Origin: Candidatus Saccharimonadota bacterium
GTDB lineage: Bacteria; Bacteroidota; Bacteroidia; Cytophagales; Amoebophilaceae
Length of the DNA stretch: 32,000 bases
Direction: 5' to 3'
Assembly: GCF_936981045.1 (NCBI RefSeq)
Contig: NZ_OW441264.1
Location: 690,001-722,000 of the forward strand
Shown: positions 21,500 through 22,753 of the stretch, piece by piece
Position numbering within the stretch: position 1 is the first letter of the stretch
Layout: each line of letters begins with the position of its first letter
The notes under the pieces: generated by a model
Told to the model about the DNA's origin: nothing
The model's database searches: none
Seen by the model: the letters and a program-made list of their open reading frames with translations, nothing else
Program-made: the position numbers and the translations under genes

Positions 21500-22753
21500 T
21501 TAAAAACCGTTTGACTTTACTAATTTTTTTCCAGCTTCATATCCTTTAGGTGATACTTTTTTAGCAAAATTTTTCAACCTTCTCCAAAAACGCATCTTTT
21601 GCTCCATTTTCTGCATAAGATTGGCATTTGCTTTTAGTTTACGCAAACTATTCGCTCCACCGGCAGCTGCAGCAGCTACAGCACTACCAGCTACACCGGC
21701 AGCTCCAATGCTACCCATTCCAAAGAGACTATTTTTTTCGGCTCTACCACTACCCAGCCCAACACTAGCACTGCTCTTTGGGGACCCAGCTGCACCACCA
21801 CCCGGTCTAGGACTAACACTACTTTTTCTGGATCCACTTGGACCACTACCCGGCCCGCGACCACCACTACTGCTACTACTACCTAACCTATGACCACCTC
21901 CTCCAACTCCACCTCCACTACCACCAGGCCCATTGCCGGCAACACCTCCTTGCAAGCCACTGTCAGAAGGGCTTGCGCCAACATTGGTACCATAAGCCCC
22001 ATCCCCAGAACGGTTCGCAGCAATACTAGAAGTTCGACCAGAAGGGCTTGCACCAACACCGGAACTATAAACCGCACCCCCAGCACCATTAGATCCCTGA
22101 TAAATCTGATCAGGTCCTCCATCATAGGCACCAGGTGGCGCACCACTGTAAGCACCACTCATGCCATTAGGTGTCGGTCCAAAAACCTCCTGAACAGGTG
22201 GACCTTGGCCAGAAGGAACCTTTTGATTCGAGGTTGCATTGGCACCAGATGCCTTTGCATATTTGCCATCTACACCAGCAGCAGACTTCCCTTTTCCTAA
22301 AGGAACGAGCTCCTCCAATACAGATATATGCGCCTCTGCTCTAACAAGCGTACCATCTACTTGAAACATAGAATAAACGATGTCTAGAGCTACCAATCTG
22401 CCTTTAAAATCAATCTGGCCCCAGATTACACGGATGTAATTGGGAGCATTGTTCTTTTTATGGATACTGTAAGCAACATTTTGAAGTTGCTTTACTTGCT
22501 CCATCACAGCAATGGTATTGCTACCAGGTATAATGCCTGTATTATCAAACAAGAGACTAAAAGAGAGCAGCTTTGGAGGAGATCCACGGTATTTCAGCAA
22601 ACTAGAACTCGGGATTCCCTCAGGAACATGGTAGGACACTGCACTTTTAATAACCAAGTTCTCAGGATTAATAGATGTAATAAACTCTCCTGTAAAAGAG
22701 GCAAACTTATTGTCACTACATGCTTTAATAACTAGTTTACTAACATTACTCAT
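21500..22753 (-). CDS. Afp7/Pvc7-like CIS tube-domain protein with a long G/S/A/P-rich low-complexity region and a basic C-terminal tail (no LysM seen)
   Basis: The N-terminal ~150 aa (INPENL..., LKYRGSPPKLLSFSLLFDNTG, VIWGQIDFKGRLVALDIVYSMFQVDGTLVRAEAHISVLE) fit the contractile-injection-system tube N-terminal domain found in Afp7/Pvc7 homologues. Residues ~152-368 are low complexity. Residues 369-417 are Lys/Arg-rich. Confidence 0.8.
   Translation of the reverse strand: MSNVSKLVIKACSDNKFASFTGEFITSINPENLVIKSAVSYHVPEGIPSSSLLKYRGSPPKLLSFSLLFDNTGIIPGSNTIAVMEQVKQLQNVAYSIHKKNNAPNYIRVIWGQIDFKGRLVALDIVYSMFQVDGTLVRAEAHISVLEELVPLGKGKSAAGVDGKYAKASGANATSNQKVPSGQGPPVQEVFGPTPNGMSGAYSGAPPGAYDGGPDQIYQGSNGAGGAVYSSGVGASPSGRTSSIAANRSGDGAYGTNVGASPSDSGLQGGVAGNGPGGSGGGVGGGGHRLGSSSSSGGRGPGSGPSGSRKSSVSPRPGGGAAGSPKSSASVGLGSGRAEKNSLFGMGSIGAAGVAGSAVAAAAAGGANSLRKLKANANLMQKMEQKMRFWRRLKNFAKKVSPKGYEAGKKLVKSNGF

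What the first reader, a model, noticed from the sequence alone, without database searches (positions are those of the whole stretch)
21503..22300. The Afp7-like protein carries a ~215-residue G/S/A/P low-complexity domain with [G/S]-Tyr-[G/S] motifs and a basic helical tail instead of LysM
Residues ~152-368 (DNA 21650-22300) are almost entirely Gly/Ser/Ala/Pro. Tyrosines recur in a G/S context (GAYSG, GAYDG, AVYSSG, GAYGT). A VGASPS(G/D) motif is repeated. There are runs such as GGSGGGVGGGG, SSSSSGG and AAAAAGG.

The last ~49 residues (LRKLKANANLMQKMEQKMRFWRRLKNFAKKVSPKGYEAGKKLVK) are strongly basic and look amphipathic.

At the DNA level this stretch is conspicuously GC-rich in an AT-rich genome, which is why it is open in several frames. 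Afp7/Pvc7 homologues normally end in a LysM domain, and I see none here.

Hypotheses (inference only):
- a flexible tether anchoring the tube or baseplate to membrane or nucleic acid;
- an in-tube disordered ruler or cargo-like segment;
- a self-associating (phase-separation-type) domain that bundles machines.
Basis: partly seen in the sequence, partly recalled or inferred. Interest (0 to 1): 0.7.

Follow-up and report, generated by a model that had tools for sequence, protein, structure and literature searches.

The report
Tube-initiator protein with disordered basic tail
The Afp7-type "tube initiator" of the phage-tail-like injection machine of the insect/spider symbiont Cardinium has lost its usual LysM connector domain. 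In its place is a long, selected, disordered Gly/Ser/Ala/Pro segment with two strictly conserved peptide motifs and a strongly basic helical tail, which may tether the machine to the cell membrane.

Summary
ORF 21500-22753 (-) encodes a 417-aa protein identical to the "CIS tube protein" of Cardinium endosymbiont of Oedothorax gibbosus.

- **Domain layout:** aa 4-147 form the Afp7/Alg7/Cis7 tube-initiator barrel. Aa 151-367 are 66% G/S/A/P and are predicted to be disordered. Aa 368-417 are basic (+13) and predicted to be helical.
- **LysM:** no LysM domain is detectable, even with a profile specific to this family.
- **GC content:** the high GC comes from amino-acid composition (GC3 0.26). It is not foreign DNA or an artefact.
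- **Conservation:** the architecture recurs in more than 30 Cardinium and Amoebophilaceae orthologues, in frame and with dN/dS below 1.

New findings:
- The low-complexity part holds two strictly conserved motifs. PTPNGMxGAYSGAPxGAYDGGPDxxYxG occurs in 33 long homologues, none of which has LysM. GGVAGNGPGGSGGG(V/I)GGGGH is invariant in 10 Cardinium genomes despite scrambled third codon positions.
- Sister lineages (Amoebophilus, Cytophagales MAGs) have the tube domain, a long variable linker, a LysM domain, a hydrophobic helix and a Lys-rich tail. Canonical relatives are about 225 aa and end at LysM.
- The Cardinium form therefore looks derived, with LysM eroded to an (N/D)SLR remnant.

Function is inferred only. 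The most likely role is six flexible tethers from the baseplate hub to an anionic partner, probably the inner membrane. I class it as a new variant of a known family, of moderate interest.

The parts
21500..22753 (-). Complete gene for the 417-aa Afp7/Cis7-like tube-initiator protein. The stop codon is at 21500-21502.
   Evidence: ORF listing. 100% identical to the NCBI 'CIS tube protein [Cardinium endosymbiont of Oedothorax gibbosus]'.
22313..22744 (-). N-terminal tube-type beta-barrel domain (aa 4-147).
   Evidence: PF19266 CIS_tube, E=1.5e-31. Profile hit to Alg7 7aeb_M at E=1.6e-32, and to Cis7, Afp7 and Pvc7. Foldseek top hits are the same chains. AlphaFold2 pLDDT is 70-90. dN/dS is 0.07-0.08.
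21653..22303 (-). Intrinsically disordered G/S/A/P-rich linker (aa 151-367).
   Evidence: 66% G+S+A+P and low entropy. AlphaFold2 gives no secondary structure, with pLDDT 31-59. The distance from residue 150 to the (N/D)SLR remnant is 147-254 aa, median 231, in 32 orthologues. dN/dS is 0.29-0.39.
22094..22177 (-). Conserved Tyr motif PTPNGMSGAYSGAPPGAYDGGPDQIYQG (aa 193-220), with three tyrosines spaced 8 residues apart.
   Evidence: Invariant or near-invariant columns P195, Y202, A205, P206, G208, A209, Y210, G212, Y218 and G220. dN/dS is 0.06-0.23. Present in 33 long homologues, none of which has LysM.
21890..21949 (-). Conserved glycine motif GGVAGNGPGGSGGGVGGGGH (aa 269-288).
   Evidence: Identical, apart from one V/I position, in 10 Cardinium genomes while third codon positions differ at most Gly codons. 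Absent from non-Cardinium Amoebophilaceae.
21653..21727 (-). Gly/Ala-rich, mildly hydrophobic stretch LFGMGSIGAAGVAGSAVAAAAAGGA (aa 343-367). It occupies the position of the first half of LysM in sister lineages.
   Evidence: Kyte-Doolittle mean is 1.51 over 19 aa. The summed Hessa scale is +3.85, so it is not predicted to be transmembrane. The alignment places it opposite the LysM of Amoebophilus-type proteins.
21635..21652 (-). NSLRKL (aa 368-373), a candidate remnant of the LysM 'NGL(D/N)SLRxL' segment.
   Evidence: S369 and L370 are conserved in at least 90% of sequences. The segment aligns with LNSLRDL/LDSLRGL of the LysM-bearing homologues. hhalign gives P=0.0011 with a collinear alignment. 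The support is modest: the reversed-sequence control scores 19.1 against 24.6.
21503..21640 (-). Basic C-terminal tail (aa 372-417). Helices are predicted at 372-400 and 402-414. The core is RFWRRLKNFAKKV (21554-21592), followed by (A/S)P-x-x-Y-(D/E/N)-AGKK.
   Evidence: AlphaFold2 helices. Net charge +13 and hydrophobic moment 0.69. Conserved across orthologues. dN/dS is 0.28-0.56. 'AYDAGKKK' also occurs in the tails of the LysM-bearing relatives P0067 and P0039.
22772..22948 (-). Upstream neighbour: a 58-aa DUF5908 protein, the Afp6/Alg6 'plug'-like component.
   Evidence: PF19265, E=4e-5, below the family cut-off. Same position in the Amoebophilus and Cardinium loci. The Alg6 homologue Aasi_1078 is cited in PMC8894135.
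22985..27502 (-). Rest of this piece of the CIS cluster. It comprises a Pvc16_N protein (26945-27502), a 286-aa protein (26079-26939), the sheath (24546-26033), two tube-like proteins (23987-24451 and 23468-23923) and a gp19-type tube protein (22985-23434).
   Evidence: Pfam hits. Gene order is identical in L001-L004.

Best explanation
**Shown.** This is the tube-initiator subunit (Afp7/Pvc7/Alg7/Cis7 family) of Cardinium's T6SSiv-like contractile injection system.
- Its N-terminal barrel is canonical.
- Its C-terminal half is a lineage-specific remodelling under purifying selection. The LysM domain that normally clamps the central hub to the baseplate wedges is gone.
- In its place is a roughly 217-residue intrinsically disordered G/S/A/P-rich linker. 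The linker carries two conserved short linear motifs and ends in a conserved polybasic, predicted-helical tail.

**Inferred evolutionary path.**
1. A short tube+LysM form, as in most CIS (about 225 aa).
2. A form with tube, long linker, LysM, hydrophobic helix and Lys-rich tail, as in Amoebophilus and the Cytophagales MAGs.
3. The form in Cardinium and some Amoebophilaceae, where the LysM fold has eroded to an (N/D)SLR remnant, the hydrophobic helix has become a basic helix, and the GAY motif has been gained.

**Inferred mechanism.**
- The six copies in the initiator ring each send a flexible tether out of the hub.
- The conserved motifs dock on baseplate partners, partly replacing LysM.
- The polybasic tail binds an anionic surface. 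The most likely surface is the cytoplasmic membrane, against which these machines are mounted without a trans-envelope complex.
For: **Identity**
- PF19266, E=1.5e-31.
- PDB profile hits to Alg7, Cis7, Afp7 and Pvc7 covering aa 3-160 only. Foldseek gives the same chains.
- Conserved gene order after the DUF5908 gene.
- Listed as the Afp7 homologue CAHE_0463/Aasi_1079 by Penz 2012.

**LysM loss**
- No Pfam hit at E<=10.
- A family-specific LysM profile hits 97 short and 20 long relatives and none of the 33 Cardinium-type proteins.

**Disorder and helical tail**
- AlphaFold2.

**Selection and authenticity**
- GC3 is 0.26.
- dN/dS is 0.07-0.08 for the tube domain, 0.29-0.39 for the linker, 0.06-0.23 for the GAY motif and 0.28-0.56 for the tail.
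- The Gly motif is invariant although its codons are scrambled.
- More than 30 orthologues keep the frame.
- All AFP-like genes are transcribed in Cardinium cEper1 (PMC5698495).

**Intermediate forms**
- Amoebophilus-type proteins have a linker of median 106 aa and variable composition. This is followed by LysM, then a 15-aa hydrophobic helix (Kyte-Doolittle 1.9-2.9 in 18 of the 19 that have a post-LysM segment), then a K/R-rich tail of 16-219 aa.
- The short type has essentially no linker or tail.
- By taxon, Cardinium and Amoebophilaceae MAGs carry the motif type, and Amoebophilus and Cytophagales MAGs carry the LysM+tail type.
- The C-terminal modules align collinearly by hhalign, P=0.0011.

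**Geometry and membrane**
- The LysM of Alg7 and Cis7 projects outward to the wedges.
- The A. asiaticus T6SSiv lacks a trans-envelope complex and touches the inner membrane via six anchoring densities plus the cage. [quoted passage not shown]
- The tail charge of +8 to +14 is conserved in 29 of 30 orthologues.
Against: - No direct evidence exists for any binding partner.
- The tail is clearly amphipathic in only 10 of 30 orthologues.
- The Cardinium G/A-rich stretch and tail are not predicted to be transmembrane (Hessa sums +3 to +14). Even the Amoebophilus-type helix is only marginal (-3.5 to +9.9, mostly +0.4 to +3.7).
- Homology of the tail module to the Amoebophilus-type module is only modestly supported. 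The real hhalign score is 24.6, the reversed control scores 19.1, and 57 column shuffles score 13.8 or less.
- A polybasic tail would bind nucleic acid or the acidic tube lumen just as well as a membrane.
- In the LysM-bearing relatives the long linker is a loop between two fixed domains rather than a free tether, so the linker need not serve reach.
- The molecular identity of the six Amoebophilus anchoring densities is taken from secondary descriptions. I could not read Bock et al. 2017.
Confidence: 0.42

Rival explanations
1. The extension is a connector that stays inside the baseplate. The GAY motif and the Gly motif are linear docking peptides that replace LysM in clamping the initiator ring to the wedge proteins (homologues of gp25/Afp9 and Afp11/12). 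The basic helix packs against an acidic baseplate or sheath-initiator surface. No membrane contact is involved.
For: - LysM and the GAY motif are strictly mutually exclusive among 179 homologues: 33 have the motif only, 117 have LysM only and none has both.
- The motif is as constrained as the folded domain, with dN/dS 0.06-0.23.
- The known role of LysM is hub-wedge binding.
- The hydrophobic helix of sister proteins is too short or marginal for a transmembrane segment. It must therefore be buried somewhere, and a protein interface is possible.
Against: - It does not explain why 150-250 residues of disordered chain are kept.
- It does not explain why the post-LysM Lys-rich tails vary from 16 to 219 aa. 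That variation suggests non-specific electrostatics rather than a fitted protein interface.
- This rival is not exclusive of the tether model, since the motifs could dock while the tail reaches the membrane.
Confidence: 0.25
2. The disordered G/S/A/P region with tyrosines is a self-associating or cross-linking element. It bundles neighbouring machines into the ordered arrays seen in Cardinium and Amoebophilus, by a condensate-like or 'velcro' mechanism.
For: - Cardinium shows regular arrays of tube-like structures in electron micrographs (PMC3486910; PMC5698495).
- Six long flexible chains per baseplate could reach neighbouring machines.
- Three tyrosines are conserved.
Against: - Tyr is only 1.7-4.5% of the linker. 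From my own knowledge, that is far below FUS-type low-complexity domains.
- Linker composition is not conserved across the clade. It is A/G-rich, S/N-rich or E/N/K-rich in different lineages.
- The conserved elements are discrete motifs rather than distributed stickers.
- The initiator ring sits at the centre of the baseplate, which is an unfavourable origin for lateral contacts.
Confidence: 0.1
3. The extension is an in-tube ruler, plug or cargo-like segment. The basic tail binds the acidic tube lumen and helps set length or is expelled on firing.
For: The inner tube surface of CIS is negatively charged (PMC8894135), and the tail carries a charge of +13.
Against: - Dedicated tape-measure genes exist in this lineage: a PF19268 CIS_TMP protein in the Amoebophilus locus and the Afp14-like pair CAHE_0118/Aasi_1806.
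- In solved homologues the chain leaves the barrel towards the outside of the ring.
- In sister proteins the tail follows a LysM that sits at the wedges.
Confidence: 0.05
4. The low-complexity part is an artefact: a frameshifted fusion, a mis-assembly, or decaying non-functional sequence in a reduced genome.
For: Cardinium genomes are reduced and rich in transposases and pseudogenes. The non-motif parts of the linker evolve fast, with dN/dS 0.40-0.55.
Against: - The same architecture, with the conserved tail kept in frame, occurs in more than 30 assemblies, including complete chromosomes.
- GC1/GC2/GC3 are 0.64/0.72/0.26, which marks this frame as the coding frame.
- The Gly motif is invariant with only synonymous changes.
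- The orthologue is transcribed.
Confidence: 0.01

Closest known systems
Alg7 of the Algoriphagus machipongonensis eCIS (PDB 7AEB chain M, 228 aa)
   Same: Closest solved relative of the N-terminal barrel: profile E=1.6e-32 over aa 4-147, Foldseek E=1.7e-11 at 32% identity. It holds the same place in the gene order, after the Alg6/DUF5908 plug gene. It is the second ring of the tube-initiator complex (PMC8894135).
   Different: Alg7 ends in a LysM domain that contacts the wedges. It has essentially no linker, although that short linker is reported as cleaved. It has no disordered region, no GAY or Gly motifs and no basic tail.
Afp7 (6RAO_G), Pvc7 (6J0N_b, 9QGL_7A), Cis7/All3321 (7B5H_AK) and the Streptomyces Cis7 (9GTP)
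   Same: The same tube-initiator family, with E from 2e-23 to 6e-17 over the barrel.
   Different: All are 217-240 aa with a C-terminal LysM. Nothing in them matches aa 160-417 of the window protein.
Afp7-like proteins of Amoebophilus (Aasi_1079 type: P0034, P0036, L015) and of uncultured Cytophagales MAGs (L016, L017)
   Same: Same clade, with 42-54% identity in the barrel (L015-L017). They share a long low-complexity linker after the barrel, an (N/D)SLR segment, and a C-terminal helix followed by a Lys/Arg-rich tail. Some tails carry 'AYDAGKKK'. The gene neighbourhood is the same.
   Different: They keep a recognisable LysM (E from 1e-14 to 1e-4 with the family profile; Pfam LysM E=0.008 in P0036). 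Their helix is hydrophobic (FSLAALLAALL) rather than basic. They lack the GAY and Gly motifs. In Amoebophilus the next gene is VgrG, whereas in Cardinium the cluster is broken at this point.
Membrane anchoring of CIS by extensions of structural proteins (thylakoid-anchored CIS of Anabaena; haloarchaeal T6SS anchor Hbor_38620)
   Same: A precedent for the idea that a CIS is converted from a free particle to a membrane-mounted machine. The conversion happens through added extensions or accessory proteins on baseplate components (PMC8894136; bioRxiv 10.1101/2024.04.11.588991).
   Different: Those anchors are extensions of Cis11 and a tail-fibre-like protein, or a separate protein with six transmembrane helices. 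None involves the tube initiator, and none is a disordered linker with a polybasic tail. The resemblance is functional analogy only and is untested here.
Polybasic or amphipathic membrane-targeting sequences (MinD and FtsA C-terminal helices, MARCKS-type polybasic-aromatic segments; from my own knowledge)
   Same: A short C-terminal segment rich in Lys/Arg with interspersed Phe, Trp and Leu. In this protein the hydrophobic moment is 0.69.
   Different: There is no sequence homology. Amphipathicity is not conserved across all orthologues. Membrane binding was not tested.

Membership tests
Afp7/Pvc7/Alg7/Cis7 tube-initiator family | N-terminal tube-type beta-barrel (Pfam PF19266 CIS_tube) | tested here: met
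   E=1.5e-31, 109.7 bits against a cut-off of 27, over aa 4-147. PDB profile hits to Alg7, Cis7, Afp7 and Pvc7. Foldseek top hits are the same chains.
Afp7/Pvc7/Alg7/Cis7 tube-initiator family | C-terminal LysM domain that binds the baseplate wedges | tested here: not met
   No Pfam LysM hit at E<=10. A profile from the LysM-containing C-termini of 93 short homologues gives no hit in any of the 33 Cardinium-type proteins, yet it detects 117 relatives. Only a possible NSLRKL remnant remains.
Afp7/Pvc7/Alg7/Cis7 tube-initiator family | Gene position: after the tube genes and the Afp6/DUF5908 gene, and before the spike (VgrG/Afp8) gene | tested here: inconclusive
   The upstream order is conserved: sheath, three tube-like genes, DUF5908. 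VgrG follows in Amoebophilus. In Cardinium the cluster ends at this gene, and no VgrG is found in the window. This is consistent with the five scattered regions reported in PMC3486910.
Afp7/Pvc7/Alg7/Cis7 tube-initiator family | Forms a hexameric ring between the tube and the spike in the assembled particle | not testable with these tools
   This needs cryo-EM or cryo-ET of Cardinium particles, or multimer modelling.
Amoebophilus-type long Afp7 (tube, linker, LysM, hydrophobic helix, Lys-rich tail) | Long low-complexity linker after the barrel and a basic C-terminal tail after an (N/D)SLR segment | tested here: met
   The linker is 217 aa and the tail carries +13. The Amoebophilus-type comparison is, and the collinear hhalign match (P=0.0011) is.
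Amoebophilus-type long Afp7 (tube, linker, LysM, hydrophobic helix, Lys-rich tail) | Recognisable LysM, followed by a hydrophobic 15-aa helix (Kyte-Doolittle about 2 or more) | tested here: not met
   There is no LysM. The equivalent helix is basic (RFWRRLKNFAKKV). The best hydrophobic window is the G/A stretch, with Kyte-Doolittle 1.51 and a Hessa sum of +3.85.
Integral membrane anchor (transmembrane helix) | A hydrophobic segment of about 19 residues with favourable predicted insertion energy | tested here: not met
   The lowest unweighted Hessa sum beyond aa 150 is +3.85 in the window protein and +3 to +14 across Cardinium-type proteins.
CIS tape-measure protein (PF19268 CIS_TMP / Afp14) | Match to the TMP profile, and being the only ruler candidate in the system | tested here: not met
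   No Pfam hit. A separate CIS_TMP gene lies in the Amoebophilus locus, and there is an Afp14-like CAHE_0118 in Cardinium.
FUS/prion-like [G/S]Y[G/S] low-complexity domains | High density of regularly spaced aromatic stickers in a G/S/Q/N-rich region, with composition conserved among orthologues | tested here: not met
   There are 6 Tyr in 218 residues (2.8%), and 1.7-4.5% in orthologues. Linker composition differs widely in the clade. The threshold for 'FUS-like' comes from my own knowledge.

The most novel reading that the evidence does not exclude
The C-terminal module of the Afp7-like tube initiator is the so far unassigned element that mounts T6SSiv-type machines on the cytoplasmic membrane without a trans-envelope complex. 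In Amoebophilus that module is a linker, LysM, a hydrophobic helix and a polybasic tail. In Cardinium it is a disordered linker, docking motifs and a polybasic helix. [quoted passage not shown] If so, remodelling of a single hub protein would be one evolutionary switch from a released eCIS to a membrane-anchored T6SS-like mode. Presence of this tail could then predict the mode of action from sequence alone.
Probability: 0.2. Interest if true: 0.75.

Novelty: new variant of a known kind. Interest (0 to 1): 0.5.

Why it matters
Contractile injection systems act either as released particles or as membrane-mounted T6SS-like guns. What decides the mode is known for only a few systems. For the T6SSiv of Amoebophilus, and presumably of Cardinium, published tomography shows six membrane-contacting densities and no trans-envelope complex. 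In the papers I could read these densities are not assigned to a protein.

The finding offers a concrete, six-copy candidate that can be recognised from sequence, together with a stepwise evolutionary series: short LysM form, then LysM plus helix plus tail, then LysM lost. Both can be tested by tagging or deletion combined with cryo-ET and liposome binding.

It also shows that a region which looks like plain low complexity hides two peptide motifs as constrained as a folded domain. These motifs are candidate interaction sites in the only known secretion machine of a widespread reproductive manipulator of arthropods.

If the tail turns out to be an internal baseplate element instead, the result is still a clear case of a folded connector domain being replaced by linear motifs.

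Tried and rejected
1. **Motif search.** A search of the 5.8-billion-protein database with the 45-aa GAY motif found no candidate sharing enough words. Whether the motif occurs in other proteins remains unknown.
2. **Tail search.** A search with an 18-sequence alignment of the tails found 473 word-sharing candidates, none with E<=1. The module is too short to score against so large a database.
3. **Genome-collection scan.** I used the full-length alignment instead.
4. **AlphaFold2 of the Amoebophilus homologue P0036.** The run did not fold the LysM region (pLDDT below 50 for aa 167-327). The likely reason is that only 3 of the 18 rows contain LysM. It was not used as evidence.
5. **Cluster-member look-up.** Ten long homologues returned no organism names.
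6. **Bock et al. 2017** could not be read. Statements about the Amoebophilus anchor come from later papers.
7. **Tandem-repeat origin of the region.** Only three tiny arrays were found, with scores of 31-39. The two VGASPS copies are not part of a DNA repeat array.
8. **Transmembrane reading of the G/A-rich stretch.** Rejected on the Hessa scale.
9. **Remnants of downstream CIS genes in the window.** tblastn found none.
10. **Functional RNA or terminator near the gene.** Rfam and tRNA searches of the whole window, and a terminator scan of 20200-23100, found nothing.
11. **hhalign column-shuffle control.** Three of 60 shuffles gave artefactual scores of about 130 over 7-12 columns. I disregarded these and relied on the other 57 shuffles and the reversed control.
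Full report
**1. What is in the sequence**

The finding lies in one ORF, 21500-22753 on the minus strand, encoding 417 aa. The protein is 100% identical to the NCBI entry [quoted passage not shown], so the window comes from that spider symbiont.

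The gene is the last of a minus-strand block of contractile-injection-system (CIS) genes:
- a Pvc16_N protein (26945-27502);
- a 286-aa protein (26079-26939);
- the sheath (24546-26033);
- two tube-like proteins and a gp19-type tube protein;
- a 58-aa DUF5908 protein (22772-22948);
- this gene.

Downstream there are no spike or wedge genes, only about 1.25 kb without a sizeable ORF and then gyrA on the other strand. This fits the published description of 16 AFP-like genes scattered over five regions in Cardinium (PMC3486910). That paper lists the orthologue CAHE_0463 as the homologue of Aasi_1079 and Afp7, with no domain and no function assigned.

**2. Check of the observation**

- **Composition:** aa 151-368 are G 27.5%, S 17%, A 14% and P 8%. 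Window entropy falls to 2.0-2.7 bits.
- **Tail:** aa 369-417 have 15 K/R and 2 D/E.
- **GC content:** GC rises to 0.52-0.56, but GC1/GC2/GC3 are 0.64/0.72/0.26. The GC excess follows from Gly, Ala, Pro and Ser codons, with the AT-rich third positions typical of the genome. It is not foreign DNA. The open frames on other strands are by-products.
- **Predicted structure:** AlphaFold2 with a 33-sequence alignment gives a confident barrel at aa 1-150 (pLDDT 70-90). There is no secondary structure and pLDDT 31-59 for aa 153-371. Helices at 372-400 and 402-414 have pLDDT 52-65.
- **Amphipathicity:** the tail's best hydrophobic moment, 0.69, is reached by 23 of 2000 shuffles. Across 30 orthologues only 10 are comparably amphipathic, whereas a net charge of +8 to +14 is seen in 29 of the 30. 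"Basic" and "probably helical" are solid; "amphipathic" is only partly so.

**3. Identity of the N-terminal domain and absence of LysM**

Aa 4-147 match PF19266 CIS_tube at E=1.5e-31. A profile of the family hits these chains, always over the barrel only:

| Chain | Protein | Length | E-value |
|---|---|---|---|
| 7AEB_M | Alg7 | 228 aa | 1.6e-32 |
| 7B5H_AK | Cis7 | 234 aa | 2e-23 |
| 6RAO_G | Afp7 | 229 aa | 2.1e-18 |
| 6J0N_b | Pvc7 | 229 aa | 6e-17 |

Foldseek with the model returns the same chains. In those structures the C-terminal LysM projects outward and binds the wedge proteins (PMC8894135; PMC8894136).

The window protein has no LysM. Pfam gives nothing at E<=10. A profile I built from the LysM-containing C-termini of 93 short homologues finds nothing in any of the 33 Cardinium-type proteins. 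The same profile scores LysM in 97 short and 20 long relatives.

**4. The region is real and under selection**

Thirty-six close homologues, all from Cardinium or Amoebophilaceae, are 336-491 aa long. Despite many indels in the low-complexity part, nearly all of them return in frame to the same conserved tail. These include complete genomes from Nabis limbatus, Tipula unca and Sogatella furcifera.

dN/dS against three Cardinium orthologues:

| Segment | dN/dS |
|---|---|
| Barrel | 0.07-0.08 |
| Whole linker | 0.29-0.39 |
| Linker without the motifs | 0.40-0.55 |
| Tail | 0.28-0.56 |

All AFP-like genes are transcribed in Cardinium cEper1 (PMC5698495). The artefact and frameshift scenario is therefore rejected.

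**5.

The linker holds two islands of strong conservation.
- **GAY motif:** PTPNGMxGAYSGAPxGAYDGGPDxxYxG (aa 193-220) has three tyrosines eight residues apart and several invariant columns. Its dN/dS is 0.06-0.23.
- **Gly motif:** GGVAGNGPGGSGGG(V/I)GGGGH (aa 269-288) is identical in ten Cardinium genomes, while the third positions of most of its Gly codons differ. That is an unusually clear sign of selection on a glycine run. It is absent outside the genus Cardinium.

There is no DNA tandem-repeat structure.

**6. Comparative series**

An exhaustive HMMER search with the barrel found 660 relatives. Its 150 best, listed hits have a clearly bimodal length distribution. Distant relatives (E>1e-20) are about 210-245 aa, consisting of the barrel directly followed by LysM. 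Their linker is about 0 aa and about 1 aa follows LysM.

Close relatives are 300-616 aa and fall into two types.
- **Amoebophilus type** (20 proteins, plus the genomes of Amoebophilus sp. 36-38 and two uncultured Cytophagales MAGs):
  - a linker of median 106 aa whose composition varies from A/G-rich to E/N/K-rich;
  - a divergent LysM;
  - a 15-residue hydrophobic helix such as FSLAALLAALL, with Kyte-Doolittle 1.9-2.9;
  - a Lys/Arg-rich tail of 16-219 aa.
- **Cardinium type** (33 proteins: Cardinium and some Amoebophilaceae MAGs):
  - a linker of 147-254 aa carrying the GAY motif;
  - no LysM;
  - an (N/D)SLR segment;
  - the basic tail.

The GAY motif and LysM never occur together.

MAFFT and hhalign place the Cardinium NSLRK under the LysM segment NGL(D/N)SLRxL. 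They also place (I)PKLSLWQRLKLLAKKV under (A)IPFSLAALLAALLKKG. 'AYDAGKKK' recurs in some Amoebophilus-type tails. The profile-profile score is modest: P=0.0011 and score 24.6, against 19.1 for the reversed control and 13.8 or less for 57 column shuffles. I therefore treat the "eroded LysM plus homologous tail" reading as likely but not proven.

**7. Mechanism**

*Shown:*
- membership of the tube-initiator family by its barrel;
- loss of LysM;
- a disordered linker with two constrained motifs;
- a conserved polybasic, predicted-helical tail.

*Inferred:* six copies per machine send flexible chains out of the hub. The motifs dock on structured partners. The tail binds an anionic surface.

I favour the cytoplasmic membrane as that surface, for four reasons.
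- The helix+tail addition is confined to the Amoebophilaceae/Cytophagales clade. Its characterised member is mounted on the inner membrane without a trans-envelope complex, through six anchoring densities plus the cage (bioRxiv 10.1101/2024.01.29.577165). [quoted passage not shown]
- The solved relatives from released particles or from CIS anchored by other components (Alg7, Afp7, Pvc7, Cis7) lack the addition.
- The length of the Lys-rich tail varies greatly, which suggests non-specific electrostatics.
- Converting a CIS to membrane attachment by extending structural proteins has precedent.

Against this reading:
- nothing here is predicted to be transmembrane in Cardinium;
- amphipathicity is not general;
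- a polybasic tail could equally bind nucleic acid or the acidic tube lumen;
- in the LysM-bearing relatives the linker is a loop between two fixed domains.

I put the combined statement at about 0.4. The descriptive part alone stands at more than 0.9.

**8. Rivals**

- **Purely intra-baseplate connector, with the motifs replacing LysM (0.25).** Supported by the motif/LysM exclusivity. It is compatible with the tether model.
- **Array bundling or condensate (0.1).** Weak, because Tyr is only 2-4% and linker composition is not conserved.
- **Ruler or cargo (0.05).** Disfavoured by separate tape-measure genes and by the geometry.
- **Artefact (0.01).** Refuted.

**9. Comparison with what is known, and novelty**

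The gene is annotated, and was listed as Afp7-like in 2012. I found no paper that describes its C-terminal architecture. It fails one defining feature of the Afp7/Cis7 family (LysM) while meeting the other feature I could test (the barrel). It is best filed as a new variant of a known kind.

**10. Verdict**

Interest is moderate (0.5). A CIS specialist would find the LysM-to-motif replacement and the candidate membrane tether worth testing, but the functional claim rests on inference only.

Noticed in passing
window 21890-21949 (-); also L002-L013: The 20-residue glycine motif GGVAGNGPGGSGGG(V/I)GGGGH is invariant at the protein level in 10 Cardinium genomes, while most Gly codons differ at the third position. 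Its function is unknown, and it is specific to the genus Cardinium.
   Followed up: partly
window 20251-21499: About 1.25 kb between the end of gyrA and the stop of the Afp7-like gene holds no ORF longer than 60 aa. GC drops to 0.24-0.26 around 20550-21000. There is no Rfam family, tRNA or terminator-like site. This is where the CIS cluster breaks relative to Amoebophilus, where VgrG follows. tblastn finds no remnants of VgrG, PAAR, gp25 or Afp11.
   Followed up: partly
window 10675-12054 (-): An ORF with a reverse-transcriptase domain (RVT_1) plus a group II intron maturase domain (GIIM). No group II intron RNA family reached the Rfam gathering score anywhere in the window.
   Followed up: no
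window 16337-17445 (+), 5812-6717 (-), 6731-7324 (-): A Mutator-family transposase is split into two overlapping ORFs (profile positions 20-203 and 203-377), which suggests a frameshifted copy. There is also a second, truncated Mutator-family copy and a DDE_Tnp_1_3 transposase. These are typical mobile-element debris of Cardinium genomes.
   Followed up: no
window 8055-8834 (-): A 259-aa protein with a SUKH/SMI1-KNR4 domain, a fold often found in immunity proteins of toxin systems. Its 242-aa neighbour at 8947-9675 has no Pfam match.
   Followed up: no
window 28634-29086 (+): A 150-aa ORF that matches only positions 64-162 of the 246-position phosphomethylpyrimidine kinase/PfkB profile. It is probably a gene fragment or pseudogene.
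   Followed up: no
window 26079-26939 (-), 23987-24451 (-), 23468-23923 (-): Three conserved CIS-cluster proteins have no significant Pfam match: a 286-aa protein between the Pvc16_N gene and the sheath gene, and two tube-sized proteins of about 150 aa. All are syntenic in the Amoebophilus and Cardinium loci.
   Followed up: no
P0009: The orthologue in the Cardinium endosymbiont of Sogatella furcifera is named 'Putative afp12-like protein' in NCBI. By domain content it is the Afp7-like protein, so the name is misleading.
   Followed up: no
L001 16698-21125 (Amoebophilus sp. metagenome contig): The last gene of the Amoebophilus cluster encodes a protein of more than 1560 aa carrying a PF19268 CIS_TMP hit. 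That is far longer than the usual tape-measure proteins of eCIS.
   Followed up: no
P0044, P0065, P0049: Some metagenomic Amoebophilus-type homologues have extreme tails. P0044 has 219 residues after the helix, with 84 K/R and 48 D/E in ERK-rich repeats. P0049 continues for more than 200 aa into a non-basic domain.
   Followed up: no
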